From a virus, in the IMG/VR virus record IMGVR_UViG_3300035492_000074, positions 1 through 45,149 of that record: DNA of 45,149 bases; one strand, given 5' to 3'. Positions 7,954 through 38,482 of this stretch are shown here, piece by piece. The notes beneath the pieces were generated by a model. The model saw only the letters and a list, made by a program, of their open reading frames with translations, was not told where the DNA came from and did no database searches. The translations under genes and the position numbers were made by a program. Numbering within the stretch: the first letter of the stretch is position 1; each line of letters begins with the position of its first letter.

Positions 7954-8165
7954 TGATTGCCAAGATCCGCGTGACCAACCCGAAAGGCGAGGTGTTCACC
8001 ACCAGCATCGCCAACCTGCCGCAGATCACCATCGGCGTCAACGGCGGCGGCTACACCACCGACCAGACCATGCGCGCCATGGCAGACGGCCAGGCTGTCC
8101 ACGACGGCCTGACGGTAAAACGCAACGGCTGGACCATTGAACCGATTCGAGATACCGAGAACTGA
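7953..8165 (+). CDS. Hypothetical early protein (70 aa)
   Basis: The ATG overlaps the upstream stop (TGATG). Sequence begins MIAKIRVTNPKGEVFTTSIANLPQ... Confidence 0.65.
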   Translation: MIAKIRVTNPKGEVFTTSIANLPQITIGVNGGGYTTDQTMRAMADGQAVHDGLTVKRNGWTIEPIRDTEN

Positions 8166-19500: not shown

Positions 19501-19561
19501 TCATGGCCGCTCCTGGGACTATGCCCCGGAGGGTAAAGCCCAGATGCTGGCCTAAGCGCAC

Positions 19562-19589
19562 CAAAGAAAAAGCCCCGGCTGGCGGGGCT
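19562..19589 (-). terminator. Intrinsic terminator after the tail fibre gene
   Basis: The minus strand reads AGCCCCGCCAGCCGGGGCT followed by TTTTTCTTTGG, starting 9 nt after the stop at 19598. Confidence 0.7.
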
Positions 19590-19597
19590 GTTAGGAC

Positions 19598-22336: not shown

Positions 22337-22396
22337 GTCGACACCTTGGGGTGGATACTGCCCGCAGAGTAGCGGCCAGCCCCACCCCTAAGCGCA

Positions 22397-25300
22397 CTAG
22401 CGGCCGGTTGCTATCCCGATGCCCATCTCGGCTGCAGACTGTGGGTCTTTGCGACCTGACTCGACGTCGAACAGGTAACCACCAGCCCGCGCCACCGGCG
22501 CTACCGGCAGTCCCGTGCCCAAGCCCAGCAGGGTGAGCAGGCTGCGGAACTCGGTCTTCGTGAACTCCTCGTCGAACACCTCGCCGGTGAGGATCGCTGC
22601 CAGCCCCTTGCCCGCGGATTCTCCCGCGGACAGCGCGGGGCCGACGTTGAGGCGGTCGTTCCACACTCGGCTATCGGACTGGTTGGCGACCAGCACCGCG
22701 CCGTGCCCCGCGATTGGGATCATCGTGGCCAGCGACTTGGCCTGGCTGCCGAAGAACATGGCCAGCCACTCATCCAGCAGTCCGTCGCCGTCCTCGTCAT
22801 CCTCGTCGTCCGGGGTGCCCTGGGAGATCAGCTCGGCGACGAACGCCGGGATCGCGAGGCCGGCGAACCAGATGAACATCAGCCGCGGGCTCGCCCGTAC
22901 GAAACCGGCCTCGCGCACCGCCTTGTTCGCCTCGTTGCCGATCAGGTTGCCCCACATGTTGAAGTAGCCGTAGAACTGGGTGAACAGCCGCACGAAGGGC
23001 GATTGCACCTCGAACGCCGAGATGTCCTCCGGCGCGAAGCTGCCCTGCGTCGTGCGCACCGTCTCGTCCGCGTAGCGGCGCGCCTCCTTCTCGGTGGCCC
23101 CCTGTGCGATGGCGTGGTCGTAGCCCCCGGTCCAGATGATCGGGTCCATCACGTTCTGCATGGCCTGCTGCAGGAAGTAGGCATGGCGGCGCACGAAGTC
23201 GGTGAACTGCTCGTACGGGTTGGGGTTGGTCAGGATCTGGTCGATCTGGTCCTGCATCGCGTAGGACTGGTTCGCCATCCGCTCAGCCAGCCAGGGCGAG
23301 CGCTCGCCCACCTGCTGGCGCATCTTGAGCGGATGGGCCAGGTAGCTGGCGGTGGCGCGCAGCAGCTTCGGCGCCGGCACCTTGAGTGCGGCCAAGCTAA
23401 ACCCGGTGAGCTGCTGCAGGGTGTTCACGATGTTGCCGAACATGAACAGCAACCCGGTGCGGCTGCGCAGCCCGTTGAAGAACCGGTTCATCTTCGGGTT
23501 CTTACCAGGCATCGATGCGCTCTGCCGCGCGGTGCGCTGCAACCATGGGGTCAACATGTCGCTGATCGCGCCAGGGCTCGCGCCGTTGAGCGCGCGGGCG
23601 ACCCGCTTGTTGCCCATCAGCTGAGCCACGTCCCTGATCGCGGGCTCGAGGTAGGCGAAGCGCGACACCTTGTCGAGATGCTGGCCGATGGCCCGCAGGT
23701 CCAGCTCAAGCGGCTTGTTGTAGAAGACGCGCGACTGGGTGAACCCTTTGCCGGTGGTCGGGAACATGAACGAGTTGCCAGCGTGCAGCAGCTCCTCCTG
23801 CTCGCGCTTCTGCGCCATATCCGGCGAGGACAGGCTATCGGCCAGCGCCGGGACGTAGCCGCCACGGTAGGTGCCGAACGGGGTGTTGATCGGGTCCGCG
23901 GTCACTTCGTTGAAGTAGTAGCCGTACATCTCCTTGTGCGCGGCCTGGGCGTCTTTCTTCACCGTCTCCAGCAGATCCCACACGCCCTGCGCGAAGTCGA
24001 AGTCGGCCTTGGTCAGCACGCCCTCGTTGATCATCCGGGTGATGAACTGGTCCCACTTGCTGGTGTCCAGTTGCCCGTTGGCGTCGAGCGTGCCCCAGCC
24101 TCGGCCGAGCAGCAGCTTGGTAAGGTTCGACTGGTTGCCGCTGTGCAGGACCGCGTGTAGCAGCTCGGACTTGCCCGCGTTGAACACGAAGCCGGTGGGG
24201 CCCAGCTCGGGCGCGTCGATCTTGTTGTAGGTGATGCCCTTCTCGATGGACTTGAGCAGGTCGCGGTACTGTGCCACCAGGGCGTTGCGCTTGTCGCGCA
24301 TGATGGTGGTCGCCTCGGACACCGGCTGCCAGATGTAGCGTTTGAACGCCGGGCCCCAGTTGTCGGCCCAGGTCTCCACGCGAGTCAGACTGGCCTTCGC
24401 ACTCAGCAGCGAGGCCTTCCACTTGTCCAGGCCGGTCGGCGTCCCGGTGTAGCCTGGCAGCGGCGGAATGGTGCCGCCCGAGCGCTCGGTCACAATGGCC
24501 ACCAGCTCGTCGGCGATTGCGTCGATGTCGACCTTTTGCCCGTCGATCTCCATCTGGCGGGTGCGGCGCGACAGGTAGTAGAGGCCGTTGACCACGTCGC
24601 GCATTCCGCGGAACTGCTCGACCGTCAGGTCGCGGAAGTCCACCGACGGCGGCAGGCCCTGCAGGATCGACTTGATGTCGGCGGCCATCGCGCCGTCGTA
24701 GTTCTCCAGCAACTGCTGGTAGGCCTGCGCGTTGGCGGCGCTGGTGTTCGGCGCCAGGCCGTAGCGGGCGAGCACGGCGCGAGCGGCGGTGACCATCGCG
24801 ACGTCGCGCGACTTGGCCAGCTTCTCGTTGGTGCCCTTGAAGATCTTCTTGAACCCGGCCAGGGCCTTGTCGTGCTCCTGTTGCGCGCGGCGCTGCGCCC
24901 GCTCCAGTTGCACCTGCAGGATCTCGGTGCGCTTGGCTTGAGCGGCTGCCGCGGTATCGCCGGAGGCCATCGCCTTCTCCGCGGCCTTGCGGGCGCGGGC
25001 GGCGCTGGCAGCGGCCAGATCCGGGCGTAGGTTGCGCACGGGCTTCGCGGCCACGATCTGCTCAGCGGCCTGGCGCGCGGCACGGGTCAGGGCCGCCGGC
25101 GAGCCGGTTGCCTTGGTCACGGCCTTGAGTTCGGTTGCGACGAGCCGCGAGCGGGCATCGTTGGCCAGCGCCTCGTTGGCGGCCTCGGCCATCGCCTCCG
25201 GCGAGGAGATGTCGCCGTGGCGCTCCAGCATGCGCTGGTCGGTCATGCCTTCGATCACGCTGGCCTTCGGCTCAGCGTTCAGCAGCTCGGTGACCAGCTG

Positions 25301-28300
25301 GCGCCCGGAGCGGAAGCCGAACATCTCGGCCACGGTGTCCGGGTGCAGGCCCGCGTCGGACAGCATGCCATACTTGCCGTAGCCCAGCTTGCGCCACTCG
25401 ACACCGGTGCCCAGCTCGCCCTCCGGGTACATGCGCTCCAGCTCGGTGATGTTCAGTTTCGCGGCCTTGGTGACCTCGATCTGGATCTGCGAACCGTCCT
25501 CGTCGGTGAGGCTGCCGAACTTCAGGAACTCCATCGCCTTGTAGATCGGCTGCTCGTTCACCTCCGCAGTGACCTCGTCGCGCACGGCCTTGCGCAGCGC
25601 CTGGGCAGCCTTCTGCAGCTCCTTGAGCTTGCGGCCTCGGGCGTTGTCCAGCCACTTCAGATCGCGCAGCGTGCGGGCCTGCAGCTCCTCGATGGCCTCG
25701 GCCTGTTGCTCCTGCAGCGTGGCCTGGTACTCGGCCCACGCCTCTGGCTCCATCCCGGCGTCTTCAGCGCTGCGGAACAGCGGCTCGAACTGACGCACGG
25801 CTTGCGCCGCGGCGATGGCCTCGTCGGTGGCGATCATCCGGTCGAAGACCGCGGCCACCTCCGGGTTCAGACTCGCGCGCTCGTTGGTGGCGAGCATCTG
25901 CTGCAGGCTGCGGTAGACGCTGATCAGCCAGGAGCGGAAGCGGCGGAACACGCTCTGCAGCTCTGCGCTCGGGGCCTTGCCCTCGAACAGGTACTGCTCG
26001 AACGTCTCGGCAATCGTCTCGTGCGCTTCTCGGCGCGCGTTGAGCGGCTGAGCCAGCCACTCAGCCGCGGTGCCGGTGTATCCAACGTGGTCGAGCAGCG
26101 TCTGCATGTCGGCGACGACCTCTGCCGGCGCGTTGGGCTGCGCGGCTAGCGTGGCCTGCATCTCGAAGAAGAAGTGCCCGGTCTCGTGCAGGAAGCTGGA
26201 GAGATCCGCCTTCTCTAGCAGCGCGATGTTCAGCGTGCTGGGGTTGAATGTGGCGCGTGCCTGGCCGGGTTGGTTGAGGATGTTCGGGTCAGCTGGATCG
26301 AACCCGCCGGTGTTGCCGATGGCGGACTTGATCTGGGTCGGGTCGAAGACAACGATCTCGCGTCCGCGGATGGCATTCTTAGCGTCGGAGTGCTTGACGC
26401 CACCCTTACGGCTGATCGCGTCGTTGCGGATTAGGGCGTCGTAACCCTGCTTTTCCACTTCCGAGACGTAACCCTCCGGCAACGGGGCTCCGAGCGGGAT
26501 ATTGGTCCTGATCGGCTCGTCGCGCTCGAGCGGGTTCTCCGCCCGAACATAGAGCGGCATCACGTTCTTCTGGAACGGTTGGTTGGGCTTGCCGTCGACC
26601 CAGCCGAACTCGTCGTACCGGTCAAGATACCGGCTTGCCATCTCGGGGTTGTCGGTTACCGAGATGCCGCTAACGCCTGTGTAGCCCATGAACTGGCCGT
26701 GCTTGTCGAACACCTGCTTATCGTCCAGGGTGGAGTGATAGACAACCAAGGGGCGCCCCTGGTCATCCACGATCTTGCTGTCGCCGAACCAGCGCCAGAA
26801 GGCCTGAATGCCCTCTTCGGTCTGGCTCAGCGGCGCGCCGTTGCTGTTTGTTGTTGGCCGAGCAATGCCCTCCACGAGGATTGTGTCGGTCTGCGCCGAC
26901 TGGTTGAACACGTCGCCCTGCTCTGCCTCGTCGGCGACACGCCCCTCGGTCCAGGTCCACTCCGGCATCAGGCCGGTCTTCTGGTCGGCGAACACGGTGT
27001 CCTCCACCTTGGCGGTGCGGTTCTGCTCGCCGTAGGGGCCGTAGTTCAGCCAGCTGTTCTGGCCGCGGGTCTCCGTGGTGATCGCAGCGACCGCCGAACC
27101 GGTGAAGAGCCGGACGTGCGCCTGCCAGGCGTTCTCCTCGCCGCGTGCCCGAAAGCCTGCGCCCTCGAGGCCGTGGCCGAAGGCGTCGTGAACCGCGCGG
27201 AACAGGTCGTTGGCCAGCACACGCTTCGGCGGGCCATCCGGCGAGCCATAGGGCCAGGTCAGACCGGTGTCGGCCAGCAGGGGGTTGTCGTCGACGTTCA
27301 GCTCGGTGGCACCGCTGCCGAAGCCAGCCTCGGTGGCGAAGACGCCCATCCGCTGGTTGGCCCGCAGATCGCGCATGGCGTTCCAGGGGTTCCCGGCGTA
27401 TGGGTCGTTGGTCTCGTCCACAAGGTAGAACTGGTAGCCGGCGGTCTCGAGCGCTTTGTACTGCGCCATGGTCTGGCGGATCAGATTCTCGAACGCCTCC
27501 TTGACCACCGGGTCTTGAGGGGCGTGCGGCATCGCCTCGTAGGCGGCCGCGATGCGGGCGGCGCGCTCGGGGTCTACTTCGACGTATTGCGCCTGCCGGC
27601 GGAGCGGGATTCCGTTTTCGCGGGCGTACTGCTCTGCGACTGCGACGAGGCGGGGGTCCGGGCCGGTTGCGCCTTCAACAGTTGGCGCACCCTCAAGCGG
27701 CGCAAGGCTTCCGCTCGAATACCGTCCTGCTCGGTCTCCACCTGCTCTGGCACCTTGGGCATCGGTCAGCGCTCCTTGGTTGAAGATGGCGCGCTCGGCG
27801 GCTGCGGGGTCGACGCCTTCAGGCTCTGCTCGGGCTGCGAGGGCTTCGCGGACGAGCTGGGTCGCTTCGCGCCGCAGACTATCAGGCCGCCTTTGAGCGG
27901 ATGATTTGCCGGGAGCGGTTGCCCCGTCCTGTTGATCACTGGCATAGCCGTACTCACTCTTCTGCGGGAAAGCGGAATAGACCTGATCGACGTGAATCTG
28001 GAATTCGTCGCCCAGGTGTTCGTTGATCCTACCCGCCAGATCCTCGTTGGACAGAGCGGAATAGTTCAGGATAGTCATCTGGCCGTTGGCCGTTGTGTGC
28101 CCGCCGACCAGCGGCTCGCCGTTCTCCTGCAGCTCGAACAGGCGGTCGTAGAGCGCGGTGACCTCGTTGGCGCCATAACCCTCCGGCAGGGAGATCGTGA
28201 CCGCCCCTACCGGTTCGGTGCCGATGGCCTGGGTCTCGGTGACCACCATCATGCTGTCCTGCGCCAGCGCGTGGCCCAGCAGCTTGGCGGCCTGCACGGC

Positions 28301-31300
28301 CAGCTCCGGACGGTCCAGTCGCAGGGTCATCGACGGGTTGGTCGCGCCCAGGTAGCCGCCCAGCTGCATAACGAAGTCGCCGGTGGTGGAGAGTTCGGCC
28401 AGCACCTTCGGGACCACCTGGGCGGCCACCTGCTGGCTGATCTCCAGCCGCTCGGCGTCCGACAAAGCATTCCACTGCTCGGTGAGCGCAGCGTCGTTCG
28501 GGTCTGGGGCGACCTCGAACATCACGCGCGCCTCGGCCGCCTCACCGGCGCCAGCGTCGCCGCGCTCGTCGATGGCGCGCTGGGCGTCGCCCTCGTAGGT
28601 GCGGCCGGGCGTGTCGTTGAACTCGGCCTCGGTCCAAGTCGGCGGGGTGATGTGGCCGGCCAGCTTCACGATCTCGGCCTGGGCCTGCGCCTGGTCGATC
28701 TCGCCCGCCTTGTAGCGCTCCCAGATCGCATTGGCCGGAGCCTTCATCGCGTTCTTGCGCGGCCCCTCGAACAAGCCACGCACCGCTTCCCAGGTGATCG
28801 ACTGCATCTCGCGCGGCAGCAGACCGCGGGCCTCGGCCGCGCGCCGGTAGGCTTCCAGATAGATCGGGTAGGTGCCGGACAGGCCGGTGATGCTGGAGCT
28901 GGCCGAGCCCGCGCCGCCGAAGTTCTGGACGACCTCCAGATCCCCACCGGCGAGGGGGCGGAGCAGGGCGGCAGCCACGGCGTGGGTGTCGATGGTGGCG
29001 AAGCCCATCTCCGACTTCGGGTCGAAGATGTTGTTGTAGAAGTTGCGCACCTTGTGCTCGCGGCCGAGCTGGTGGAAGACGTTCTCGGCGCGCCCGTCCA
29101 GATAGATGGAGATGGCGGCGGCGATGTTGTCGTAGGTCTTCCAAGCCATCGTGGCCGGGTTGCCGCTCGCGGTGGTGCGCAGGCCTGCAGCGCCGCCCTC
29201 CGGGGTTAGCACGTTGAACGCGCGGCTGTTGTGGGTCTGGTCGAAGACGCGAACCCAGCGGGCGGCCAGGTCCGGCCGGTCGAGCAGTTCGGAGAGCTTC
29301 TTGCCTCGCGCCAGCTCCATCTTCGGGTCGGTCTTGTCGCCCAGAATCCGGTCGGCCTCGACGCTCATCGCGTCGTCCCACTGGAAGTCGCGCATGCCGA
29401 ACAGGATGTCGGCGGTGCGCTCGGCGGCGCTGACGTTCTGGAACCAGTCGTTCTGCGGGCTGAGCACGGCAATAGCCGCAGCGGCCTGCATCTCGGAGAT
29501 GCCGTACCGGTTGGCCCAGGCCTCAGCCATCTTGCGCCCGCCGTCGTACCAGAGCTTCGCGCGGTCGCGCTGCTCGGCTGGCATCAGATCGTGAAGGAAC
29601 AGCAGGTTATCGACGACGTGCTCCACGAACTGCTCGACGACCTTGGCCGGCTTGCGCGCCTTGGTCGGGCGCATGTTCGGCATGGCGCGCAGGGTTGCCG
29701 CGTTCTTGGCGAGCGTCTTCTCGTCAGCCAGCACCGAGGCGAAGTCGATAGCGAGCACGTTGGCCAGTGCATCCTCGGTGGCGCGCACGGCGCTGGGCAC
29801 ACGGGTGGACAGGGACTGGTTGAAGACCTCGCTGTTGCGGGCGTCGGCGATGATGTCGGCGCGGTAGCGCGGCTCGTTGCCCTCGAACATGCCAGTCGGG
29901 GCGAGCGTAGCGTACAGCTCCGGCTCGAGGCGTTCAGTCAGCTCGCCCAGGCGACTCGGCGCAATCTGACCGGCTGGCAGTCGGTTGCTCGCGTCGAGCG
30001 CATCGAGCGCAGCCTGCAGCGGGCTTCGCGCCTGCGCGGCGGCTTCGGCGGGGGCGGCACGTTCGGTGGTCGGCACGTTGTAGGCCGCCTCGCCCAGCAG
30101 CGCCACGACGCCGGAGGTTTTGCCGCCGCCCACGGCCATGACGCCTGGGACGTAGTAGCCGTCGAAGCCGGCGTCGAGCACAGCCTGCTCGCGCGCGTTG
30201 GCGTCCGCACCGGTCCAGATGCCGAGCGGGTCTTTGCCGGTGTCGTAGATGTTCGACATCGTGACGCCGTGCTCGACGCTGCCTACGCCCTGCTCCGGGC
30301 GCACGCCGGCGCCCTCGTCGACGTAGGCCAGCACGCGAGAGCGCAGCGGACTGTCCTCGGGCAAGCCAGCCAAACGTGCGCGCTCGGCGCCCTTCAACCC
30401 GGTGCCGAAGAAACGGCCATCGAGGACCGGCCGGCGGGTGGTGGAGAAGTGAACGCCCTGCACCGTGAGCGCGCCAGGTTTGGCCTCTGGTGTAACGCTG
30501 GAGGCGTACTGGTCCAACACCTGGGCTTGCTGCTGCCCTGGTGCGCGGGAGGTCACGGTCAGCGGAAACCGCGCGTACATCTCCTGCGGGGTGATGCCCA
30601 GCTTGCTGGCCTGCACCGCGTAGAAGTTGCGCACCAGCGTGGCGTAAGCCCGGTTCACGTCGGGGGTGAAGCGGCCCGCTTTGCTCAGCTCACCCATCAG
30701 GGTGTCGAATACGGCGTTGCTGCTGTCCTCCCAGGCCTGCGCCTCGGTCTGCTCGGCGAGCACCTTCTGCGCATCCTGCTCCAGCTGGGCCAGCAGCTGC
30801 GCACCCTCTTCCGCCTCGGCGGCGGTCCAGGCGTCTTCGGAGACGCGCGCGTTGCGCACGATCTCCTGCTCGAGCCCCGAGCCGGCGAAGGCTGCAGTGG
30901 CCTCGCCAATTGGAATGGCGACGGCGCCATCGGTGGCCAGCGCCTCTTCCAGCTGCTCCTGCACGCTCGGCAGGGACTGGGCGAGCTGCTCCGGCGTCAT
31001 GCCAGCGGATTCCAGCAGCGGGGCGAGCACGCGGGCGTCGATGAAGATCTCGGTGGGCGAGCTGCCGGAGTCTTCGGCGGCGCCCTGCACCAGCTGCGCA
31101 AAGGTCTGCGGGTCGCGCTGGCGGGTCATGCTGGCCGCGGCGGCGGTCATCAGGTCGGCCAGTTGCTGCGCGTTCTGGTTGGCGGTGTCGGCGGCGTACT
31201 GGTTGCGGTCCAGCGTACCGGCCAGGCGGCCGACGCCCTCGCCGATGGTGGCGAGCGTACCCGACTGCACCAGCGTCGCGAACGCTGTCTGGATAGCCGC

Positions 31301-32440
31301 CTCGGGGCGCTCGGCCAGGTAGTCGTTCCACGTCTTGGTGGGGTTGGCAATAGCGGTGTCGATGGCGTCCTGCGCGAGCGTGGCGATCTGCTCGCCGGCC
31401 ATGTCGCGTCCCAGGAAGCCGGCGAAGAAGTCGGTGAGGCCAGCCTTGCCCAATCGGTCGACGGCGAACTTCATCGGTACCAGCTCGGTAAGCACCTCCA
31501 CCGAGGCCTCGCCGGCGGCGCCCAGGCTCGCCATGCCCTTGCTCGCGTCGCGCCCGCGGTAGCGACCGTAGGCCTCGCCATAGGTCTGCAGGCCCATCAG
31601 CCCCAGGCCCAGCGCAGGGCTACCGGTGGCCATTGACAGGCCCATCGCGGGTGCCGTCTGCGCGAGCGAGGAGAAGCCGCCGTAGGTCCAGCGCGCGACG
31701 TTGGTGTCGAACTCGGGCGTGGCAAGCTGCCGCTCGAAGTCAAGCTGCCCGCGCTGGCGGTTGTACTGTTCGGTGCGCTCCTCGTTGCCGCCGAACAGAT
31801 CGCCGATCTGCTGGGCCAGACCGAGCTTGGCGGACTTGAACCCGGTAGTGGCGTCGGTGGCCAGGCCGGAGAGGATGTTGCCGGGGGCGGCCTCGGGCTG
31901 TCGAATCTCGCCGATGATGCCGGTTGCACGCAGCAGTTCGCGGCGCTGCTGCTGGCGGCGGCTGAGCGCGGAAGCCGCGGCGAAGCCCTCGGTGCGCAGC
32001 ACCCGCTCGCGCTCGCGCCGCTCGGCGGCGTAGTCAGGGAGCAGGCGGTCTGTCGCGGCTTGCGTGGGGCCCACGCCCAGGTCGCCTAGCATGTTCTGAT
32101 CGATCCGGCCGCGGATCGCCTGCTCGACGGCCGACAGCTGCTCGACGTCGTCGCGGGCCACCAGCGCGTTGTCCGGGTTGGCCAGATAGGCGGCGGCGGT
32201 GGGGAAGCGCTTGGCGTAGTCGGTGGCGTCGAAACTCTCCTGCGCGACCGCTTGCTTGGTCGCGGCGGGGTCGGTGCGGGCGGTTTCAAGAGGGATGCCC
32301 AACCGGCGCGAGGCCGCGCGCAGTTGGGATTCATCATCTGGTGAAGTGGTGGAGCGTGATGCGACCGAGAGGCTGTTGCTCAAGTCCCGCGCCAGGATTT
32401 GTGGATCGACATAGAGCGGGATGTTCTTTTCGTCAGCCAT
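22397..32440 (-). CDS. Giant multidomain (polyvalent) internal virion/ejection protein, 3347 aa
   Basis: A single uninterrupted ORF with consistent GC3, occupying the gp16 position of a T7-like structural cluster. It contains an ART-like module (aa ~1876-2057, FWRWFGDSKIVDDQGRPLVVYHST...EIVVFDPTQIKSAIGNTGGFDPADPNILNQ). It also contains HExxH (FLHETGHFFFE, aa 2085), VHDAFGHG (aa 1751), long coiled-coil stretches, and hydrophobic segments near both termini. Confidence 0.85.
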   Translation of the reverse strand: MADEKNIPLYVDPQILARDLSNSLSVASRSTTSPDDESQLRAASRRLGIPLETARTDPAATKQAVAQESFDATDYAKRFPTAAAYLANPDNALVARDDVEQLSAVEQAIRGRIDQNMLGDLGVGPTQAATDRLLPDYAAERRERERVLRTEGFAAASALSRRQQQRRELLRATGIIGEIRQPEAAPGNILSGLATDATTGFKSAKLGLAQQIGDLFGGNEERTEQYNRQRGQLDFERQLATPEFDTNVARWTYGGFSSLAQTAPAMGLSMATGSPALGLGLMGLQTYGEAYGRYRGRDASKGMASLGAAGEASVEVLTELVPMKFAVDRLGKAGLTDFFAGFLGRDMAGEQIATLAQDAIDTAIANPTKTWNDYLAERPEAAIQTAFATLVQSGTLATIGEGVGRLAGTLDRNQYAADTANQNAQQLADLMTAAAASMTRQRDPQTFAQLVQGAAEDSGSSPTEIFIDARVLAPLLESAGMTPEQLAQSLPSVQEQLEEALATDGAVAIPIGEATAAFAGSGLEQEIVRNARVSEDAWTAAEAEEGAQLLAQLEQDAQKVLAEQTEAQAWEDSSNAVFDTLMGELSKAGRFTPDVNRAYATLVRNFYAVQASKLGITPQEMYARFPLTVTSRAPGQQQAQVLDQYASSVTPEAKPGALTVQGVHFSTTRRPVLDGRFFGTGLKGAERARLAGLPEDSPLRSRVLAYVDEGAGVRPEQGVGSVEHGVTMSNIYDTGKDPLGIWTGADANAREQAVLDAGFDGYYVPGVMAVGGGKTSGVVALLGEAAYNVPTTERAAPAEAAAQARSPLQAALDALDASNRLPAGQIAPSRLGELTERLEPELYATLAPTGMFEGNEPRYRADIIADARNSEVFNQSLSTRVPSAVRATEDALANVLAIDFASVLADEKTLAKNAATLRAMPNMRPTKARKPAKVVEQFVEHVVDNLLFLHDLMPAEQRDRAKLWYDGGRKMAEAWANRYGISEMQAAAAIAVLSPQNDWFQNVSAAERTADILFGMRDFQWDDAMSVEADRILGDKTDPKMELARGKKLSELLDRPDLAARWVRVFDQTHNSRAFNVLTPEGGAAGLRTTASGNPATMAWKTYDNIAAAISIYLDGRAENVFHQLGREHKVRNFYNNIFDPKSEMGFATIDTHAVAAALLRPLAGGDLEVVQNFGGAGSASSSITGLSGTYPIYLEAYRRAAEARGLLPREMQSITWEAVRGLFEGPRKNAMKAPANAIWERYKAGEIDQAQAQAEIVKLAGHITPPTWTEAEFNDTPGRTYEGDAQRAIDERGDAGAGEAAEARVMFEVAPDPNDAALTEQWNALSDAERLEISQQVAAQVVPKVLAELSTTGDFVMQLGGYLGATNPSMTLRLDRPELAVQAAKLLGHALAQDSMMVVTETQAIGTEPVGAVTISLPEGYGANEVTALYDRLFELQENGEPLVGGHTTANGQMTILNYSALSNEDLAGRINEHLGDEFQIHVDQVYSAFPQKSEYGYASDQQDGATAPGKSSAQRRPDSLRREATQLVREALAARAEPEGVDPAAAERAIFNQGALTDAQGARAGGDRAGRYSSGSLAPLEGAPTVEGATGPDPRLVAVAEQYARENGIPLRRQAQYVEVDPERAARIAAAYEAMPHAPQDPVVKEAFENLIRQTMAQYKALETAGYQFYLVDETNDPYAGNPWNAMRDLRANQRMGVFATEAGFGSGATELNVDDNPLLADTGLTWPYGSPDGPPKRVLANDLFRAVHDAFGHGLEGAGFRARGEENAWQAHVRLFTGSAVAAITTETRGQNSWLNYGPYGEQNRTAKVEDTVFADQKTGLMPEWTWTEGRVADEAEQGDVFNQSAQTDTILVEGIARPTTNSNGAPLSQTEEGIQAFWRWFGDSKIVDDQGRPLVVYHSTLDDKQVFDKHGQFMGYTGVSGISVTDNPEMASRYLDRYDEFGWVDGKPNQPFQKNVMPLYVRAENPLERDEPIRTNIPLGAPLPEGYVSEVEKQGYDALIRNDAISRKGGVKHSDAKNAIRGREIVVFDPTQIKSAIGNTGGFDPADPNILNQPGQARATFNPSTLNIALLEKADLSSFLHETGHFFFEMQATLAAQPNAPAEVVADMQTLLDHVGYTGTAAEWLAQPLNARREAHETIAETFEQYLFEGKAPSAELQSVFRRFRSWLISVYRSLQQMLATNERASLNPEVAAVFDRMIATDEAIAAAQAVRQFEPLFRSAEDAGMEPEAWAEYQATLQEQQAEAIEELQARTLRDLKWLDNARGRKLKELQKAAQALRKAVRDEVTAEVNEQPIYKAMEFLKFGSLTDEDGSQIQIEVTKAAKLNITELERMYPEGELGTGVEWRKLGYGKYGMLSDAGLHPDTVAEMFGFRSGRQLVTELLNAEPKASVIEGMTDQRMLERHGDISSPEAMAEAANEALANDARSRLVATELKAVTKATGSPAALTRAARQAAEQIVAAKPVRNLRPDLAAASAARARKAAEKAMASGDTAAAAQAKRTEILQVQLERAQRRAQQEHDKALAGFKKIFKGTNEKLAKSRDVAMVTAARAVLARYGLAPNTSAANAQAYQQLLENYDGAMAADIKSILQGLPPSVDFRDLTVEQFRGMRDVVNGLYYLSRRTRQMEIDGQKVDIDAIADELVAIVTERSGGTIPPLPGYTGTPTGLDKWKASLLSAKASLTRVETWADNWGPAFKRYIWQPVSEATTIMRDKRNALVAQYRDLLKSIEKGITYNKIDAPELGPTGFVFNAGKSELLHAVLHSGNQSNLTKLLLGRGWGTLDANGQLDTSKWDQFITRMINEGVLTKADFDFAQGVWDLLETVKKDAQAAHKEMYGYYFNEVTADPINTPFGTYRGGYVPALADSLSSPDMAQKREQEELLHAGNSFMFPTTGKGFTQSRVFYNKPLELDLRAIGQHLDKVSRFAYLEPAIRDVAQLMGNKRVARALNGASPGAISDMLTPWLQRTARQSASMPGKNPKMNRFFNGLRSRTGLLFMFGNIVNTLQQLTGFSLAALKVPAPKLLRATASYLAHPLKMRQQVGERSPWLAERMANQSYAMQDQIDQILTNPNPYEQFTDFVRRHAYFLQQAMQNVMDPIIWTGGYDHAIAQGATEKEARRYADETVRTTQGSFAPEDISAFEVQSPFVRLFTQFYGYFNMWGNLIGNEANKAVREAGFVRASPRLMFIWFAGLAIPAFVAELISQGTPDDEDDEDGDGLLDEWLAMFFGSQAKSLATMIPIAGHGAVLVANQSDSRVWNDRLNVGPALSAGESAGKGLAAILTGEVFDEEFTKTEFRSLLTLLGLGTGLPVAPVARAGGYLFDVESGRKDPQSAAEMGIGIATGR

Positions 32441-32454: not shown

Positions 32455-34599
32455 TTATTGCTGCCTGAGGTCTCCCATGAAGAACGCTTCCAGCATCTGC
32501 TGATCTGTCGGCTCGTCGATGCCTTGAGCCCGGAAGTCAGCTTCGATTGCAGTGCGTAGCTCTTTGGGTATGTCGCCGACAGTAGCGCCGAACAGTGTGG
32601 CTTTGCGCACCTCGTCTGCGTTGCCCATGAACCGGGAGAGCCAGCTTTCGTTCTTGAACGAGCGCGTTTTCAGGAACAGCTCGTCGACCACTTTCGTGAT
32701 CTCCGCGTCGTTGAACGCGCGGCCCTCGGCCTGCTGGCGCAGAAGCACCTCGTCGTTGATCGTCTTGCGGATCGCGCCGACTCTAGCAAGTGCTGCACCG
32801 CCCTTGGCTTTGGGGTCCAGCCCCATGCTCTGCAGCCGGCTGTCCACCACGTTGTTGATCATCGCCTGGTCCAGCGTGCCGGGTGCCTTCTCGCCGGTTG
32901 GGGTTCGGCCGCGCATGTCGGAGAACTTCTTGAAGTCCGACTCCGACAGGTACTGGCGCTGGGCGTAGAACTCGCTCTCGCTCATGTTGCGCACGCGCTC
33001 GGGGTCGCTAGCCAGCAGCTGGTAGGTGGCCAGGTCCGAATGTTGCCGACCGTTGCCGCGCACCGTCTCCTCGTACTTGCGCAGATCGTCCCACTTGCTT
33101 GGGTCCACCTTATCGCGGATCTCGCGGGGGATGGTGTCGTAGCGCCCGCCGTTCTCGATGTGGCGCATGCCCTCGGCGAAGGCGTTGCTGCGGGTCTCGG
33201 CCTGGCCTTTGGTGTAGAGGGTGTAGCGGCGGTTCAGCTCCTCGCGGGCCTTCTGCAGGGCGTTCGGGCGGGTGCGCAGATCCGGGTCGGCGTCGAGGCG
33301 CGCGTGTAGCTCCTCCAGCGACGGCGTGGCCGGGCGGCCTTCGCCCTTCGCGTAGGCCTGCAGGTTCCTGGCGACGTAGTTTTGCGTCTCCGTGGGCAGC
33401 TTGTCCAACCAGCCCGCGGGGTTGCCTTCGTCGGCGGCCTCCTCGAGTGCCTTGTTCACCGCCCCCGGTCCGGCGTTGTAGGCCGCCCAGGCGTGTGCCA
33501 GGTTGCCGTCGTACTCCCGCACCATGGCGTGCAGATAGTCACGCCCCACGCGCGCCCGCTCGTCCGGGGAGTCGTCCGCGGCCGGGCGCACGCCATAGCC
33601 GGGGTCGAGGTTCGTGCCGTCCATCACCTGCATCTCGCCCTTGGCGCCGGCCGGGGAGGTCAGCAGCTGGCCGTCCGCGCCGAAGCGCCGGCCGCCCGAC
33701 TCGGTCTGCATGGTGATCGCGGTCACCCGGTCCATGTCGGTCGGGTTGTCCGCCTGGGTGTATGCCGTGAACGTCTGGTTGGCCTTGGCGTTGCCGATGT
33801 AGACCGAGGCCAGCTCGTCGACGCTGGCACGGGCCTTGAGGAGATCCGCGGGGTCCATCTGCGCCTTGTAGGTCCGCAGGTACTGCTCCGCGTAGAGCGG
33901 GTTGTTGGTGGCCAGCGCCTGCTCGATGGCGCCGAGGTGGGCGGCGCTCACGAGTTTGGTGGTGCGGTCTTCGATCTGCACGGCGGACAGGCCACGCAGG
34001 CGACCGTCCTTCATGGCTGCGGCGCGGATCGACAGCACCGACTGATCGATGCGGGCGGGGTCGTTGTAGAAGGCGGCCATCTCCCGGCTGGCGGTGGCGA
34101 CGGTGCCCTCGGCCACGGAGAGCTGGTAGTTGGTGTTCTCCTGCCCCTCGTAGTTCATCAGGTTGCCGCGGAACTGCGCCAAGCGCTCGGCTGCGCGCTG
34201 CTGGAATAGCTGGCGCTGCGCCTCGTTGCCAAGGCTCTGGGCCAGCTCGCTGGTGCGGGCGTTCAGCCGCTCGTAATACTCGTCGGACAGGGGCTTGTTA
34301 TCCGGGCGCTGTAGCGCCTGCACGCCCTTCAACCGGGTGTAGCCGTTCTGCTCGCTGTAGGTGAGGTCTAGCTCCGCCTCGCGTAGTTGATTGAGTGCGT
34401 CGTCGACGCGGGACTGGTTGGCCTCCTGCTGAGCGCGCTCGAACGCGCCGGCCAGATTGCCAAGGCCTTGGGAGAGCTGGCCAAGTTCACGCGCCTGGGC
34501 GGCGCCGAAGGCGTCATCCGGGGTGGCGACTTGAACCCGCGCGCCCGGCAGAGCTTGGGTGCGGACCTGGGGTCCGTCAACGACTGGAACGCGGGCCAT
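32455..34599 (-). CDS. Internal virion protein with a lytic transglycosylase (SLT) domain
   Basis: SLT motifs are MQTESGG (catalytic Glu, about nt 33700-33702), GEMQVMDGT and AAYNAGPG. The ATG at 34599 overlaps the upstream stop (TGATG) with GGGGGTGG upstream. A GTG at 34608 is the ORF-track start. Confidence 0.85.
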   Translation of the reverse strand: MARVPVVDGPQVRTQALPGARVQVATPDDAFGAAQARELGQLSQGLGNLAGAFERAQQEANQSRVDDALNQLREAELDLTYSEQNGYTRLKGVQALQRPDNKPLSDEYYERLNARTSELAQSLGNEAQRQLFQQRAAERLAQFRGNLMNYEGQENTNYQLSVAEGTVATASREMAAFYNDPARIDQSVLSIRAAAMKDGRLRGLSAVQIEDRTTKLVSAAHLGAIEQALATNNPLYAEQYLRTYKAQMDPADLLKARASVDELASVYIGNAKANQTFTAYTQADNPTDMDRVTAITMQTESGGRRFGADGQLLTSPAGAKGEMQVMDGTNLDPGYGVRPAADDSPDERARVGRDYLHAMVREYDGNLAHAWAAYNAGPGAVNKALEEAADEGNPAGWLDKLPTETQNYVARNLQAYAKGEGRPATPSLEELHARLDADPDLRTRPNALQKAREELNRRYTLYTKGQAETRSNAFAEGMRHIENGGRYDTIPREIRDKVDPSKWDDLRKYEETVRGNGRQHSDLATYQLLASDPERVRNMSESEFYAQRQYLSESDFKKFSDMRGRTPTGEKAPGTLDQAMINNVVDSRLQSMGLDPKAKGGAALARVGAIRKTINDEVLLRQQAEGRAFNDAEITKVVDELFLKTRSFKNESWLSRFMGNADEVRKATLFGATVGDIPKELRTAIEADFRAQGIDEPTDQQMLEAFFMGDLRQQ

Positions 34600-35120
34600 C
34601 AGGACCACCCCCAGCTCTTCAGCCTTGCCTGGCCAGCGTCTGTGGCAGCGAACTGGCCTGCAGAGCTGAGCAGCGACAGGCCGGCGGCGCGAGTGGAGTT
34701 TTGCGCGCGGGCGGCGCTCGAGTACATCTGCGAGCTGGCCATCTCGTTGTCAGCCTGCACGCTATACCCCCACGCCTCGCGGGCGGCGTTGTTGCGGATC
34801 GTCTGGACGTCCTGCGCACCGAAGAACGCGGTGTCCTCGAGGATCGACAGTGACGAGCCGGAGGTGATGTCCAGGCCGTTGCTGGCCAGGCGCGCCACCT
34901 GAGTGCCGCGCATGCGCTCGGCTTGGCGGGCGGCCTGCTGGGCGTCCTCCTCGCCGCGGCGCAGCGCGTCCTCGCGCTGGTAGCCTGCCATGGTGGCGTT
35001 GGCCTGGGCCACGTCGGACTGATACTCGGCCTGCGCTTTTGCCGCTTGGCTCGACGAGTAGGCCCCGTACGCCCCAACGGCGGCGGACGCTGCTAAGAGG
35101 ATGGTTGTGGGTTCGCACAT
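34599..35120 (-). CDS. Internal virion protein (173 aa, N-terminal hydrophobic segment), in the T7 gp14 position
   Basis: MCEPTTILLAASAAVGAYGAYSS is followed by a Gln/Ala-rich helical region. Synteny places it between the GNAT-like and SLT proteins. Confidence 0.7.
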   Translation of the reverse strand: MCEPTTILLAASAAVGAYGAYSSSQAAKAQAEYQSDVAQANATMAGYQREDALRRGEEDAQQAARQAERMRGTQVARLASNGLDITSGSSLSILEDTAFFGAQDVQTIRNNAAREAWGYSVQADNEMASSQMYSSAARAQNSTRAAGLSLLSSAGQFAATDAGQARLKSWGWS

Positions 35121-35123: not shown

Positions 35124-35570
35124 TTATGCCTTCATCTCGAAAAGGTGGAAGGGGAGCTGCGCCGCACCGTAGGGGACTGCCGGGTGGATCGTGAACCCAA
35201 GTCGCTTAAGCCAGCGGATGCTGCGGGCGTTGCGCGCGTCCACGAAGTTTATCAGGTGTGGGTAGTGGGTCAGCATGCCGGTAACGTACCCTCGGCACCT
35301 ACGCATTAGCGCACCGGGGTGGCGGTCCAGCTCGTTGGTGCCCAGCATCCAGGGTGCGCCGCGACGCCCTAGCAGCCCGTCGAGCGGAGCCAGGCCGAAC
35401 ACGCAGGCCACCTTGCCCTCCACCAGGCCAACCAGCGTCCAGATGGAGTGCTCCGGAGACTGGCGCACGGTCGCCTCAACCTCGCCGGAGGCGGCGAGCA
35501 CCTCGTCGTAGTCCGCCTGCCGCAGGTCGCGCAGCAGCTCGTCCAAGTCGCCCGGCTGCAGTGGGCGCAC
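35124..35570 (-). CDS. GNAT-fold acetyltransferase-like protein (internal virion protein A-like position)
   Basis: The GTG at 35570 lies 8 nt after the upstream stop, with AAGGTAGAG upstream. Motif: ...VACVFGLAPLDGLLGRRGAPWMLGTNELDRHPGALMRRCRGYV..LINFVDARNARSIRWLKRLGFTI. The upstream 110 codons of the 258-aa ORF overlap the preceding gene and are a shadow. Confidence 0.65.
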   Translation of the reverse strand: MRPLQPGDLDELLRDLRQADYDEVLAASGEVEATVRQSPEHSIWTLVGLVEGKVACVFGLAPLDGLLGRRGAPWMLGTNELDRHPGALMRRCRGYVTGMLTHYPHLINFVDARNARSIRWLKRLGFTIHPAVPYGAAQLPFHLFEMKA

Positions 35571-35577
35571 CTCTACC

Positions 35578-37818: not shown

Positions 37819-38441
37819 CGCTGACTAATCCAGTGGGGGGTGTGTTGGTTCGTAGTCTGGCCGCCGTTGGCTACGCTTTGCGCACTGAGTGAGAGATCGC
37901 GCTCGAACATCTCGTAGCACCACTGCTTGATATCCATGTCGCGCGTGATCGCCCCGGCGAGGTAGCTGGCCAGCAGCCAGGCCACTGCGCTGACGAAGAG
38001 CGGCGGGAACTTGGTGGTGTCGCTGATGCGGCGCAGGTAGAGCAGCTCGACGTCCTCGCGCGAGGTGTAGATGAACGCACCCTCGACCGCGAAGTCGTCC
38101 ACCGCGGGGCGCCCCCCGGGCTGCGGCCGATCCGGGTAGATGGCGGCGAACACCTCGACGTGCGTGCCGGGTTGGGCAACGGATATCGGGCGGATGCAGT
38201 CCGCTGGCAGGGCGTACTTGAACTGCCACGAGGGGTGATCGTTCTCGACCTGGGCCAGCACCACACGCTTTAGTGCAAAGGACCAGTTGCGCATCTCCAG
38301 CGCGGTGTCGCGCGCAAGCGGGTAGAAGCGCTCGCACTTCTCTGCGTGGGCGCTGCCCTCCGGCGGGTCGATGCTCGAGATGTTGGGGATCTCGCCGAGG
38401 TGGGCGAGCGCCAGGTTGCAGATGTCTACGACAGAGGCCAT
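37815..38441 (-). CDS. Tail tubular protein A-like (adaptor/gatekeeper)
   Basis: The ATG at 38441 with GGAGA 7 nt upstream gives MASVVDICNLALAHLGEIPNISSIDPPEGSAHAEKCERFYPLARDTALEMRNWSFA. The size of 208 aa matches gp11-type proteins. The upstream ATG at 38471 lies inside the terminator loop. Confidence 0.65.
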   Translation of the reverse strand: MASVVDICNLALAHLGEIPNISSIDPPEGSAHAEKCERFYPLARDTALEMRNWSFALKRVVLAQVENDHPSWQFKYALPADCIRPISVAQPGTHVEVFAAIYPDRPQPGGRPAVDDFAVEGAFIYTSREDVELLYLRRISDTTKFPPLFVSAVAWLLASYLAGAITRDMDIKQWCYEMFERDLSLSAQSVANGGQTTNQHTPHWISQR

Positions 38442-38451
38442 GCGGTTGTCT

Positions 38452-38482
38452 CCAAAAAGAAAAGGGGCCATGAGGCCCCTTT
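38452..38482 (-). terminator. Intrinsic terminator inside the structural operon (after the capsid-associated genes)
   Basis: The minus strand reads AAAGGGGCC-TCAT-GGCCCCTTT followed by TTCTTTTTGG. It lies between the stop at 38505 and the start at 38441. Confidence 0.7.

What the first reader, a model, noticed from the sequence alone, without database searches (positions are those of the whole stretch)
22397..32440. 3347-aa polyvalent protein in the gp16 slot of a T7-like ejection-protein cluster
A single 10-kb ORF takes up 22% of the genome. Its neighbours follow the T7 order: tubular A, tubular B, a small GNAT-like protein, a 173-aa protein with a hydrophobic N-terminus, a 714-aa protein with an SLT domain, the giant protein, then the fibre. 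This places it where the largest internal core/ejection protein sits, but it is roughly 2.5 times longer than T7 gp16. It strings together modules typical of polyvalent proteins of phages and conjugative elements. These include an ART-like module, an HExxH module, an HD..GH-type motif (LFRAVHDAFGHG), several unrecognised globular segments separated by FNQ/LNQ-like linkers, and about 700 aa of coiled coil. Both ends are hydrophobic, glycine-zipper-like regions. The implication is a virion-packaged, DNA-co-injected effector array, for anti-defence or host takeover, fused to the channel-forming core protein. At least five segments of more than 150 aa have no motif I can place (roughly aa 1-250, 700-830, 960-1280, 1330-1520 and 2600-3000).
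Basis: partly seen in the sequence, partly recalled or inferred. Interest (0 to 1): 0.8.

Follow-up and report, generated by a model that had tools for sequence, protein, structure and literature searches.

The report
Giant multi-enzyme phage injection protein
This 3347-residue gene is a real, intact member of a known family of giant "polyvalent" proteins that short-tailed phages encode where their DNA-injection proteins sit; it is an expanded but not exceptional example, and it carries one widespread, strongly conserved domain with no match among solved structures.

Summary
The ORF (22397-32440, minus strand, 3347 aa) is real. The identical protein occurs in three independent assemblies, and its neighbours follow the T7/BPP-1 order: tubular A, tubular B, gp13-like, gp14-like, SLT protein, giant, fibre.

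It belongs to the Bordetella phage BPP-1 Bbp10 family (phrog_9880). The backbone is a conserved N-module (aa 1-644, with LPD22) and a conserved C-module (aa 2058-3347). The C-module holds a family-conserved HExxH motif, a helical region, an invariant core and C-terminal hydrophobic helices.

Between the two modules lies a variable cassette slot. The closest relatives (about 75% identical in both modules, 2084-2262 aa) hold only about 100-220 aa there. Here it holds about 1400 aa: D1, DUF7178+D3, D4 and ART-PolyVal with its H-Y-D triad intact. Each junction carries a ΦΦ(N/D)Q motif.

This matches the "polyvalent protein" concept (Iyer 2017) and the listing of Bbp10 as a T7 gp16/IVP-D counterpart (Hardies 2016). 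My own tests for gp16 homology were inconclusive.

Homologues of 3000-4200 aa are common in metagenomes, so the size is not exceptional. D4 is found in at least 4712 protein clusters. It has no Pfam model, and its confident model has no significant PDB match. It is the most novel part.

Verdict: new member of a known kind.

The parts
22397..32440 (-). Whole ORF, 3347 aa: Bbp10-family polyvalent internal-virion/ejection protein
   Evidence: (phrog_9880, 1346 bits)
30509..32440 (-). Conserved N-module, aa 1-644. Holds LPD22 (aa 25-111, nt 32108-32368) and a Gly-rich, mildly hydrophobic stretch at aa ~250-400.
   Evidence: Pfam LPD22 46 bits. 73-76% identical to P0176-P0182 and 31% to Bbp10 aa 50-605. 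Hydropathy.
29825..30508 (-). Cassette D1, aa 645-872: recurrent module of unknown function with no family model
   Evidence: Shared with DC33 aa 1596-1753 and several metagenomic proteins. No PDB sequence match. Similarity to ART not supported.
27785..29815 (-). Cassette D2+D3, aa 876-1552: DUF7178 (about aa 876-1295) plus a companion alpha/beta segment (aa 1296-1552). The two travel together in P0002 and P0004.
   Evidence: Pfam DUF7178 74 bits. 55 homologues. D2+D3 are contiguous in P0002 and P0004. No PDB sequence match. A stand-alone homologue lies in an ejection-protein cluster.
26909..27775 (-). Cassette D4, aa 1556-1844: highly conserved uncharacterised domain with motifs NDxFRAVHDxFGH, GEENA and ETRGQNSW
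   Evidence: 33 invariant columns in 40 sequences. 4712 cluster representatives. AF2 pLDDT 89, pTM 0.87. No PDB fold match, best E 0.88. No PDB sequence match. No Pfam or NCBIfam hit.
26279..26899 (-). Cassette ART-PolyVal, aa 1848-2054 (Pfam match aa 1892-2047), with triad H1902 / Y1938 / D2001
   Evidence: Pfam PF18760, 59.3 bits against a cut-off of 31.2. H, Y and D are invariant in alignment A8. The triad definition comes from PMC5512222.
25841..26269 (-). Start of the conserved C-module, aa 2058-2200: zincin-like HExxH region (H2085, E2086, H2089, then E2093)
   Evidence: H/E/H at least 90% conserved in 35- and 62-sequence family alignments. Aligns to Bbp10 from aa 771. Bbp10 aa 700-1000 seeded the CLCA_X zincin family (PMC3650047).
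22397..25840 (-). Rest of the C-module, aa 2201-3347: helical region, invariant core (about aa 2750-3160), and C-terminal hydrophobic helices including a TM-like segment at aa 3187-3205 (nt 22826-22882)
   Evidence: AF2 pLDDT 79. 103 BFVD matches at E<=1e-3; those listed are mostly unnamed or annotated as polyvalent, 'crystallin motif' or nuclease proteins. Hydropathy.
30509..30520 (-). Junction motif VLDQ (aa 641-644), N-module | D1
   Evidence: Q 87%, L 73%, D 67% at this column in 30 relatives
29816..29827 (-). Junction motif VFNQ (aa 872-875), D1 | DUF7178
   Evidence: a 19-nt near-repeat with the D4|ART junction (family D9)
27776..27787 (-). Junction motif IFNQ (aa 1552-1555), D3 | D4
26900..26911 (-). 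Junction motif VFNQ (aa 1844-1847), D4 | ART
26270..26281 (-). Junction motif ILNQ (aa 2054-2057), ART | C-module
   Evidence: Q 84% at this column in 61 relatives
32455..34608 (-). Upstream neighbour: SLT-domain internal virion protein, in the gp15 position and equivalent to Bbp11
34599..35120 (-). T7 gp14-family internal virion protein
   Evidence: Pfam T7_gp14 and phrog_418
35124..35577 (-). gp13-like internal virion protein (the C-terminal ~150 aa of the listed ORF)
   Evidence: phrog_308
19598..22336 (-). Downstream neighbour: tail fibre with an S74 chaperone domain, followed by a terminator-like hairpin at 19589-19571

Best explanation
The gene encodes a Bbp10-family polyvalent internal virion protein of a BPP-1/epsilon15-like podovirus.

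Shown here:
- A two-part conserved backbone: an N-module with LPD22, and a ~1290-aa C-module with a conserved HExxH motif, a helical region, an invariant core and C-terminal hydrophobic helices.
- The backbone flanks a slot into which different phages have inserted different domains, in different order and number.
- This phage carries about 1400 aa in the slot: D1, DUF7178+D3, D4 and an ART-PolyVal domain with an intact H-Y-D triad.

Inferred:
- The protein is made late and packaged into the head with the gp14-like and SLT proteins.
- It is ejected ahead of or with the DNA.
- Its hydrophobic segments engage the inner membrane, as proposed for T7 gp16.
- The long stretch between the hydrophobic regions, including the cassette array, is exposed in the host cytoplasm.
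- There the ART (NAD+-dependent modification of host targets) and the other modules act in host takeover or counter-defence.

More speculative: the backbone zincin cuts at the ΦΦ(N/D)Q junctions to free individual modules.
For: Family and slot:
- phrog_9880, 1346 bits.
- 32% identity to Bbp10 over aa 2059-3347 and 31% over aa 30-637.
- Same gene order as bbp14-bbp9.
- The closest relatives, P0176-P0182, are about 75% identical in both flanks but lack aa ~688-1841.
- Across relatives the slot holds ART-PolyVal, PBECR1 (in BPP-1), LPD23 (in phage AF), Zeta toxin, GNAT, HD or DUF7178.
- D1, D2, D3, D4 and ART occur in shuffled orders between the N- and C-modules in 46 further relatives.

Signs of activity:
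- ART is above the Pfam cut-off with H, Y and D invariant.
- HExxH is at least 90% conserved.
- D4 has 33 invariant, mostly polar columns and a confident model.

Virion context:
- The gene lies in the late structural operon between the SLT protein and the fibre, with a terminator after the fibre.
- Stand-alone DUF7178 and D4 proteins are encoded in ejection or tail clusters of other phages.

Integrity: identical protein in three assemblies; uniform GC3.

Junction motif: all five junctions carry it, with 4 [FL]NQ against 0.8 expected. The Q is 84-87% conserved at the two backbone junctions.

Literature:
- Polyvalent proteins are predicted to be packaged and injected, with zincins as processing enzymes (PMC5512222).
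- Bbp10 is listed as an IVP-D homologue, and N4 gp50 and H66 gp60 are precedents for IVP-D fused to intracellular enzymes (PMC4819975).
- T7 gp16 is proposed to have two membrane regions flanking a cytoplasmic hub (PMC8954989).
Against: - I found no direct evidence of packaging, ejection or processing for any family member.
- Homology to T7 gp16 was not reproduced. hhalign gave E=0.52. Foldseek listed no gp16 structure among its 50 best PDB matches. None of the 50 BFVD matches listed is named as an internal virion protein.
- The N-terminal 'hydrophobic' region is weak by hydropathy.
- No Pfam metallopeptidase model hits the HExxH region, and that region was not modelled.
- D1, DUF7178, D3 and D4 have no assigned chemistry.
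- In the wider set the strict junction motif is only 1.7-fold enriched upstream of modules, and it is present before only 14-41% of module starts.
Confidence: 0.72

Rival explanations
1. The protein is essentially structural: a core or ejectosome scaffold whose extra globular segments are inert spacers or decayed domains with no effector role.
For: The C-module is predicted to be mostly helical. Four of the cassette segments have no assigned chemistry. The backbone alone (~2050-2260 aa) evidently suffices in close relatives.
Against: The ART catalytic triad and the HExxH motif are conserved. D4 is 50-87% identical across thousands of contexts and has invariant polar residues, which points to strong selection on a specific function. 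The same modules exist as stand-alone genes and are shuffled as cassettes.
Confidence: 0.1
2. The modules are real enzymes but act in the producing cell or inside the virion rather than as injected effectors. Possible roles are head maturation, modification of phage DNA or proteins, or superinfection exclusion.
For: Iyer et al. note that zincins may process proteins before or inside the capsid, and that some polyvalent domains may target rival elements. No injection data exist for this family.
Against: The gene sits in the ejection-protein slot. There are precedents for injected enzymes at this position, namely N4 gp50 and H66 gp60, and T4 Alt is an injected ART.
Confidence: 0.12
3. It is a lysin or 'crystallin beta/gamma motif' cell-wall enzyme, as homologues are annotated in GenBank.
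For: Homologues carry these database names (PMC9239159).
Against: No muralytic or crystallin domain was found by Pfam, NCBIfam or PHROGs. The SLT domain is in the adjacent gene.
Confidence: 0.02
4. The long ORF is an assembly or frameshift artefact that fuses several genes.
For: In a 65% GC genome long spurious ORFs are easier to obtain. Epsilon15 splits the slot into two genes.
Against: The identical 3347-aa product occurs in three independent assemblies. In-frame homology runs along the whole length. GC3 is 0.82-0.92 in all modules. Full-length relatives of 2792-4217 aa exist.
Confidence: 0.02

Closest known systems
Bordetella phage BPP-1 Bbp10 (NP_958679, 2052 aa) and phrog_9880
   Same: The same N-module with LPD22 and the same C-module with HExxH (31-32% identity over about 1900 aa). 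The same position between the SLT protein (Bbp11) and the fibre.
   Different: Bbp10 carries a single PBECR1 RNase-like domain in the slot. This protein carries D1, DUF7178+D3, D4 and ART, about 1400 aa. The BPP-1 diversity-generating retroelement (DGR), listed in the BPP-1 record, was not looked for in this window.
Polyvalent proteins of phages and conjugative elements (Iyer et al. 2017, PMC5512222)
   Same: Many disparate domains in one polypeptide, including ART-PolyVal, LPD22 and a zincin-type motif. Encoded among late virion genes. Predicted co-injection with the DNA.
   Different: That paper does not mention Bordetella, gp16 or 'internal virion' in its main text. D1, D3 and D4 are not covered by any Pfam model derived from it.
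T7 gp16 (internal virion protein D)
   Same: Last and largest gene of the gp13-gp14-gp15-gp16 block, immediately before the fibre. Largely helical, with hydrophobic segments near the C-terminus. Bbp10 is listed as a divergent IVP-D homologue (PMC4819975).
   Different: 2.5 times longer. The transglycosylase is in the preceding gene, not at the N-terminus. No significant profile or fold similarity was found in my tests. T7 gp16 carries no effector cassettes.
Phage N4 gp50 virion RNA polymerase and Pseudomonas phage H66 gp60
   Same: Giant ejected virion proteins in which an IVP-D-like carrier is joined to domains that must act inside the host (PMC4819975). N4-like vRNAPs can also carry a zincin and ART-PolyVal (PMC5512222).
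   Different: No RNA polymerase or methylase domain is present here. The carrier is the Bbp10-type C-module.
T4 Alt (injected ADP-ribosyltransferase)
   Same: A virion-packaged ART that is injected with the DNA and modifies host proteins. It is the functional model for ART-PolyVal.
   Different: Alt belongs to the R-S-E clade and is a separate small protein. This ART is of the H-Y-D type and is embedded in a giant protein.

Membership tests
Bbp10 family (phrog_9880) | Homology over the ~1290-aa C-module | tested here: met
   phrog_9880 1346 bits, aa 2051-3347. Bbp10 32% identity over aa 2059-3347, E 3.5e-150. 859 homologues.
Bbp10 family (phrog_9880) | N-module with LPD22 | tested here: met
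   Pfam LPD22, 46 bits against a cut-off of 28.6. LPD22 is present in all six phage homologues scanned.
Bbp10 family (phrog_9880) | Position between the SLT internal protein and the tail fibre in a BPP-1/epsilon15-type structural module | tested here: met
   The capsid proteins are of the GP7 and Bbp16 types.
Polyvalent proteins (Iyer et al. 2017) | Several domains of disparate predicted activity in one polypeptide of a phage or mobile element | tested here: met
   LPD22, DUF7178, ART-PolyVal, a conserved HExxH, and D1, D3 and D4 as independent recurrent modules.
Polyvalent proteins (Iyer et al. 2017) | Zincin-like metallopeptidase hub domain | tested here: inconclusive
   HExxH plus a downstream acidic residue is at least 90% conserved, and the region is homologous to the Bbp10 segment that seeded the CLCA_X zincin family. 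However, no Pfam peptidase model hits it and the region was not modelled.
Polyvalent proteins (Iyer et al. 2017) | Packaged in the virion and delivered with the DNA | not testable with these tools
   Only context supports this: the late structural operon.
T7 gp16 / IVP-D family | Syntenic position after the gp13-, gp14- and gp15-like genes and before the fibre | tested here: met
T7 gp16 / IVP-D family | Sequence or profile homology to T7 gp16 | tested here: inconclusive
   hhalign of the family alignment against 18 gp16 sequences gave E 0.52, with a collinear C-terminal alignment. The PDB profile search found nothing. The control, epsilon15 gp17 against T7 gp16, also failed (E 0.21), so the test lacks power. 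The relation is claimed in PMC4819975 through stepwise HMM joining.
T7 gp16 / IVP-D family | Fold similarity to solved gp16 (for example 7EYB) | tested here: not met
   Foldseek of the aa 2148-3347 model against the PDB: best E 0.014 (MukB), TM below 0.1, no gp16 chain among the 50 matches listed. Sensitivity is low for a 1200-aa helical model and for a protein that refolds.
T7 gp16 / IVP-D family | N-terminal lytic transglycosylase domain | tested here: not met
   No SLT hit in the giant ORF. The SLT domain is in the upstream 717-aa protein. This feature is known to move between gp15- and gp16-like proteins (PMC8954989).
ART-PolyVal (PF18760) | Profile match above the gathering score | tested here: met
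   59.3 bits against 31.2, full-length match 1-140 of 140
ART-PolyVal (PF18760) | H-Y-D active-site configuration | tested here: met
   H1902, Y1938 and D2001 are invariant in alignment A8. The definition is from PMC5512222.
ART-PolyVal (PF18760) | NAD+-dependent ADP-ribosyl transfer | not testable with these tools
   Needs biochemistry.
HD-domain phosphohydrolases (as a home for the 'HD..GH' module D4) | Profile or fold match to the HD superfamily | tested here: not met
   No Pfam or NCBIfam hit. No PDB sequence hit with a 40-sequence profile. The only HD-type PDB match in Foldseek is Ddi2, at E 1.4 and TM 0.16-0.18.

The most novel reading that the evidence does not exclude
Two linked readings go beyond the known picture.

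1. D4 (aa 1556-1844) may be a previously undescribed enzyme fold. It occurs in at least 4712 protein clusters, mostly inside 2000-4300-aa phage giants. It has invariant His/Asp/Glu/Asn/Arg motifs, a confident model, and no Pfam, PDB-sequence or significant PDB-fold match.

2. The ΦΦ(N/D)Q motifs at every module junction may be cleavage sites for the backbone zincin. In that case the giant protein would be a self-processing polyprotein that releases a set of separate effectors in the host after ejection.
Probability: 0.25. Interest if true: 0.65.

Novelty: new member of a known kind. Interest (0 to 1): 0.35.

Why it matters
The gene adds a well-delimited example of how podoviruses use the largest ejection-protein gene as a carrier for swappable effector cassettes. 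Comparison with about 75%-identical relatives that lack the insert pins down the cassette boundaries to within a few residues.

In practical terms:
- It corrects the 'lysin / crystallin motif' labels that homologues carry in GenBank.
- It singles out D4, a very widespread, strongly conserved and apparently structurally unmatched domain, as a good target for biochemical and structural work on early phage takeover or counter-defence.
- The recurring junction motif gives a directly testable hypothesis for how polyvalent proteins are processed.

Tried and rejected
- **Composite alignment for one structure job.** An alignment of trimmed single-domain fragments over aa 645-1844 (A1) was badly misaligned by MAFFT and was discarded. 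D1 and DUF7178+D3 therefore went unmodelled.
- **Family libraries.** PADLOC and NCBIfam scans of the whole protein found nothing.
- **PDB sequence searches.** phmmer or hmmsearch with the whole protein and with profiles of D1, D2, D4 and the backbone found nothing meaningful.
- **T7 gp16 homology.** hhalign against T7 gp16 alone, against an 18-sequence gp16 alignment and against epsilon15 gp16 and gp17 gave only sub-significant local matches. The positive control, epsilon15 gp17 against T7 gp16, also failed, so these negatives are weak.
- **D1 as a divergent ART.** Only a 28-column match around the GYDG segment, E 0.044. Rejected for lack of support.
- **Junction motif as a general rule.** Across 419 relatives the strict [FLIVMY][NDE]Q motif is only 1.7-fold enriched upstream of module starts. 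It is kept as an observation for this protein and for the two backbone junctions only.
- **DNA repeats at the junctions.** Only a 19-nt near-repeat that encodes the same peptide. This is not evidence of recombination.
- **Megablast against phage genomes.** No close relative found.
- **Virion proteomics in the literature.** Searches for data on Bbp10-family proteins found none. The BPP-1 work identified only the two capsid bands.
Full report
**Observation.** The window holds a single ATG-initiated ORF on the minus strand at 22397-32440, encoding 3347 aa. The first and last 127 nt of the window are identical, as expected for a closed assembly of a 45.0-kb genome, so the gene is 22% of the genome. 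Exactly this protein sequence is called on three independently assembled contigs: a 44.8-kb JGI contig, a Logan assembly of SRR11791769, and one more. GC3 is 0.82-0.92 in every segment, and in-frame homology to other proteins covers the whole length. A frameshift or assembly artefact is therefore excluded.

**Neighbours.**
- terminase 43290-44882
- T7-type portal 41389-43074
- protease or scaffold 40259-40888
- GP7-type capsid protein 39246-40244
- Bbp16-type cement protein 38775-39215
- tubular A 37815-38471 and tubular B 35578-37818
- a gp13-like internal protein (phrog_308)
- a T7_gp14-family protein 34599-35120
- a 717-aa SLT protein 32455-34608
- the giant ORF
- an S74-chaperone fibre 19598-22336, followed by a terminator-like hairpin

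The left arm encodes primase-helicase, ribonucleotide reductase, exonuclease, a gp2.5-like SSB, DNA polymerase and an SNF2-like helicase.

**What family it is.** No phage in GenBank is close at the DNA level. At the protein level:
- The C-terminal 1300 aa match phrog_9880 with 1346 bits.
- They also match 49 phage records. These include Bordetella phage BPP-1 Bbp10, Pseudomonas phage AF gp16, Xanthomonas phage CP2, Caulobacter phage Jess A, Limnohabitans phage DC33 and several uncultured podoviruses.
- In BPP-1 the gene order bbp17 to bbp9 is the order found here.

Pairwise mapping shows a tripartite architecture. The N-module (aa ~30-640) and the C-module (aa ~2055-3347) are conserved in all relatives, while the middle differs. 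The homologues are 2039-3209 aa long.

The closest metagenomic relatives, P0176-P0182, come from contigs of 11-46 kb, most of them 29-46 kb. They are about 73-77% identical to both flanks but only 2084-2262 aa long. P0176 aligns to aa 1-687 and aa 1842-3347 with 35 residues between. Relative to them, this phage has about 1150 extra residues inserted between the N-module and the ART domain.

**The cassette slot.** Pfam places LPD22 at the N-terminus of every homologue scanned. The slot contents differ:
- ART-PolyVal in most
- PBECR1 in BPP-1
- LPD23 in phage AF
- among metagenomic relatives also Zeta toxin, GNAT, HD, DUF3293 or DUF7178

Homology boundaries define the modules in this protein:
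- D1, aa 645-872
- DUF7178 plus a companion segment D3, aa 876-1552; the two are contiguous in P0002 and P0004
- D4, aa 1556-1844
- ART-PolyVal, aa 1848-2054

An exhaustive search with D4 returned 142 further cluster representatives. Of these, 46 carry the Bbp10-type C-module, with the same modules in many different orders and copy numbers, for example N-ART-D4-Zn-C and N-D4-ART-D1-Zn-C. Lengths reach 4217 aa, and 26 of the 142 are at least as long as this protein. The size and the multi-domain nature are thus typical of a populous class, not exceptional.

A published relative, OANV1 gp16, has 2986 aa and was labelled a lysin (PMC9239159). No scan here found a muralytic or crystallin domain.

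**Individual modules.**
- **ART.** It scores 59 bits against a cut-off of 31 over the whole model. H1902, Y1938 and D2001 are invariant in an alignment with four homologues. This is the H-Y-D configuration that defines this ART clade (PMC5512222).
- **HExxH.** H2085, E2086 and H2089 belong to the backbone, not to the variable slot. They are at least 90% conserved in 35- and 62-sequence family alignments. The region aligns to Bbp10 from residue 771, and Bbp10 aa 700-1000 was a seed of the CLCA_X zincin-like family (PMC3650047). No Pfam peptidase model hits it, and I did not model it, so the zincin assignment rests on motif conservation and that literature.
- **D4.** This is the segment containing LFRAVHDAFGHG. 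It has 33 invariant columns in 40 sequences (NDxFRAVHDxFGH, GEENA, ETRGQN). It has 4712 cluster representatives at E<=1e-3 and no Pfam, NCBIfam or PDB-sequence match. Its AlphaFold2 model is confident (pLDDT 89, pTM 0.87) yet has no significant PDB fold match (best E 0.88, TM at most 0.18). It is not detectably an HD-superfamily domain.
- **D1, DUF7178 and D3.** These have no PDB sequence relatives. A suspected D1-ART relationship was not supported.
- **Stand-alone copies.** A stand-alone DUF7178 protein lies in another podovirus, three genes downstream of a gene with a faint Phage_nozzle (tubular B-like) hit, among large uncharacterised genes. That position matches an ejection-protein cluster. 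A stand-alone D4 protein lies among tail and fibre genes of an integrase-bearing phage.

**Junction motif.** [FL]NQ occurs four times against 0.8 expected, at aa 873, 1553, 1845 and 2055. With VLDQ at aa 641, a ΦΦ(N/D)Q motif marks all five junctions that were defined independently by homology. In relatives the Q is 87% conserved at the end of the N-module and 84% conserved just before the C-module. Over all module starts in 419 relatives the strict motif is only 1.7-fold enriched. The pattern is solid for this protein and for the backbone junctions, but not as a universal rule. It could be a processing site or simply a conserved linker.

**Backbone structure and the gp16 question.** A model of aa 2148-3347 (pLDDT 79, pTM 0.68) is mostly helical with a few small beta elements. 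The longest helix is 65 residues, so 'about 700 aa of coiled coil' is an overstatement. Hydropathy shows one strong TM-like segment (aa 3187-3205) and two weaker ones near the C-terminus. The Gly-rich region at aa ~250-400 is only mildly hydrophobic.

Against BFVD the model matches 103 predicted viral structures at E<=1e-3. The best have TM around 0.5-0.66, and significant matches extend down to about 11-13% identity. Most of those listed are unnamed; the named ones are annotated as polyvalent, 'crystallin motif', nuclease or MuF-domain proteins. This shows a widely shared carrier fold.

Against the PDB nothing is significant, and no T7 gp16 chain appears among the 50 matches listed. Profile-profile comparison with an 18-sequence gp16 alignment gives only a collinear but non-significant C-terminal alignment, E 0.52. 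Comparisons with epsilon15 gp16 and gp17 give E 0.017-0.13 over short stretches. My positive control, epsilon15 gp17 against T7 gp16, also failed, so these tests lack power.

The link to gp16/IVP-D therefore rests on position and on Hardies et al. They list Bbp10 as a divergent IVP-D homologue and describe N4 gp50 and H66 gp60 as IVP-D carriers joined to intracellular enzymes (PMC4819975).

**Mechanism.**
- *Shown:* family membership, the cassette slot, conserved catalytic signatures, and the late-operon position.
- *Inferred from the polyvalent-protein model (PMC5512222) and the T7 ejectosome model (PMC8954989):* the protein is packaged, ejected, and anchored through its hydrophobic regions. 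The stretch between them, which includes the cassettes, faces the cytoplasm. There the ART and the other modules modify host targets early in infection.
- *Speculative:* the backbone zincin cuts at the junction motifs.

I found no virion proteomics for any family member in the accessible literature.

**Verdict.** It is a new member of a known kind. The parts worth follow-up are D4, a widespread and strongly conserved module with no match among solved structures, and the junction motif as a candidate processing signal.

Noticed in passing
L009 (ENA ERZ1030004 NODE_750), 2571-8078; compare window 21740-26338: An 11-kb contig is 96.5% identical in DNA over the C-module and the fibre start. Upstream, however, its 1835-aa protein has a pyridine-nucleotide-disulfide-oxidoreductase-like domain plus ART and no N-module, and its neighbours are an RNA ligase and small ORFs instead of the SLT and gp14-like genes. 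This is either a very recent cassette or module exchange, or a chimeric low-coverage (4.9x) assembly.
   Followed up: partly
window 11924-14941 (+): The 1005-aa DNA polymerase ORF has an endonuclease-like hit (phrog_93) at aa 639-694, between two polymerase matches. This suggests an inserted homing endonuclease or intein.
   Followed up: no
window 1-127 and 45023-45149: The first and last 127 nt are identical, as expected for an assembler overlap of a circularly closed contig. The genome is therefore about 45,022 bp and probably complete.
   Followed up: yes
window 19501-21500: The fibre gene region has a markedly lower GC content (0.574 against about 0.65 elsewhere), consistent with a horizontally exchanged receptor-binding part.
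   Followed up: no
L078 (Salmonella phage epsilon15), 9670-14330: Epsilon15 fills the same slot with two genes, gp16 (634 aa) and gp17 (918 aa). Two weak local similarities were seen: gp16 aa 126-189 to the Gly-rich part of the N-module (E 0.017), and gp17 aa 742-770 to the C-module motif RFF..RSR.G..MFxN..N (E 0.1-0.13). These hint that the giant gene corresponds to a fusion, or epsilon15 to a split, of two ejection proteins.
   Followed up: partly
L003 (PQ492659.1, Limnohabitans phage DC33): The GenBank record is filed under Inoviridae (filamentous ssDNA phages). Yet the stretch fetched from this 39-kb record has the same gene arrangement as the other Bbp10-family loci, including a 3125-aa Bbp10 homologue. 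The taxonomy line looks wrong.
   Followed up: no
L076/L077 7001-8218 and L074 5392-7407: D4 and DUF7178 also exist as stand-alone genes of 405 aa and 671 aa. They lie inside the tail/fibre and ejection-protein clusters of unrelated phages, one of which carries an integrase.
   Followed up: partly
window 26898-26916 and 29814-29832: The two VFNQS junctions are encoded by a 19-nt near-repeat (17 of 19 bases identical). This may be only a consequence of the shared peptide and codon bias, or it may be microhomology that helps cassette exchange.
   Followed up: partly
one search hit statistics (aa 1-2046 used as query): 199 of 243 phage records matching the N-terminal two thirds are mycobacteriophages. 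I did not determine which module they share.
   Followed up: no
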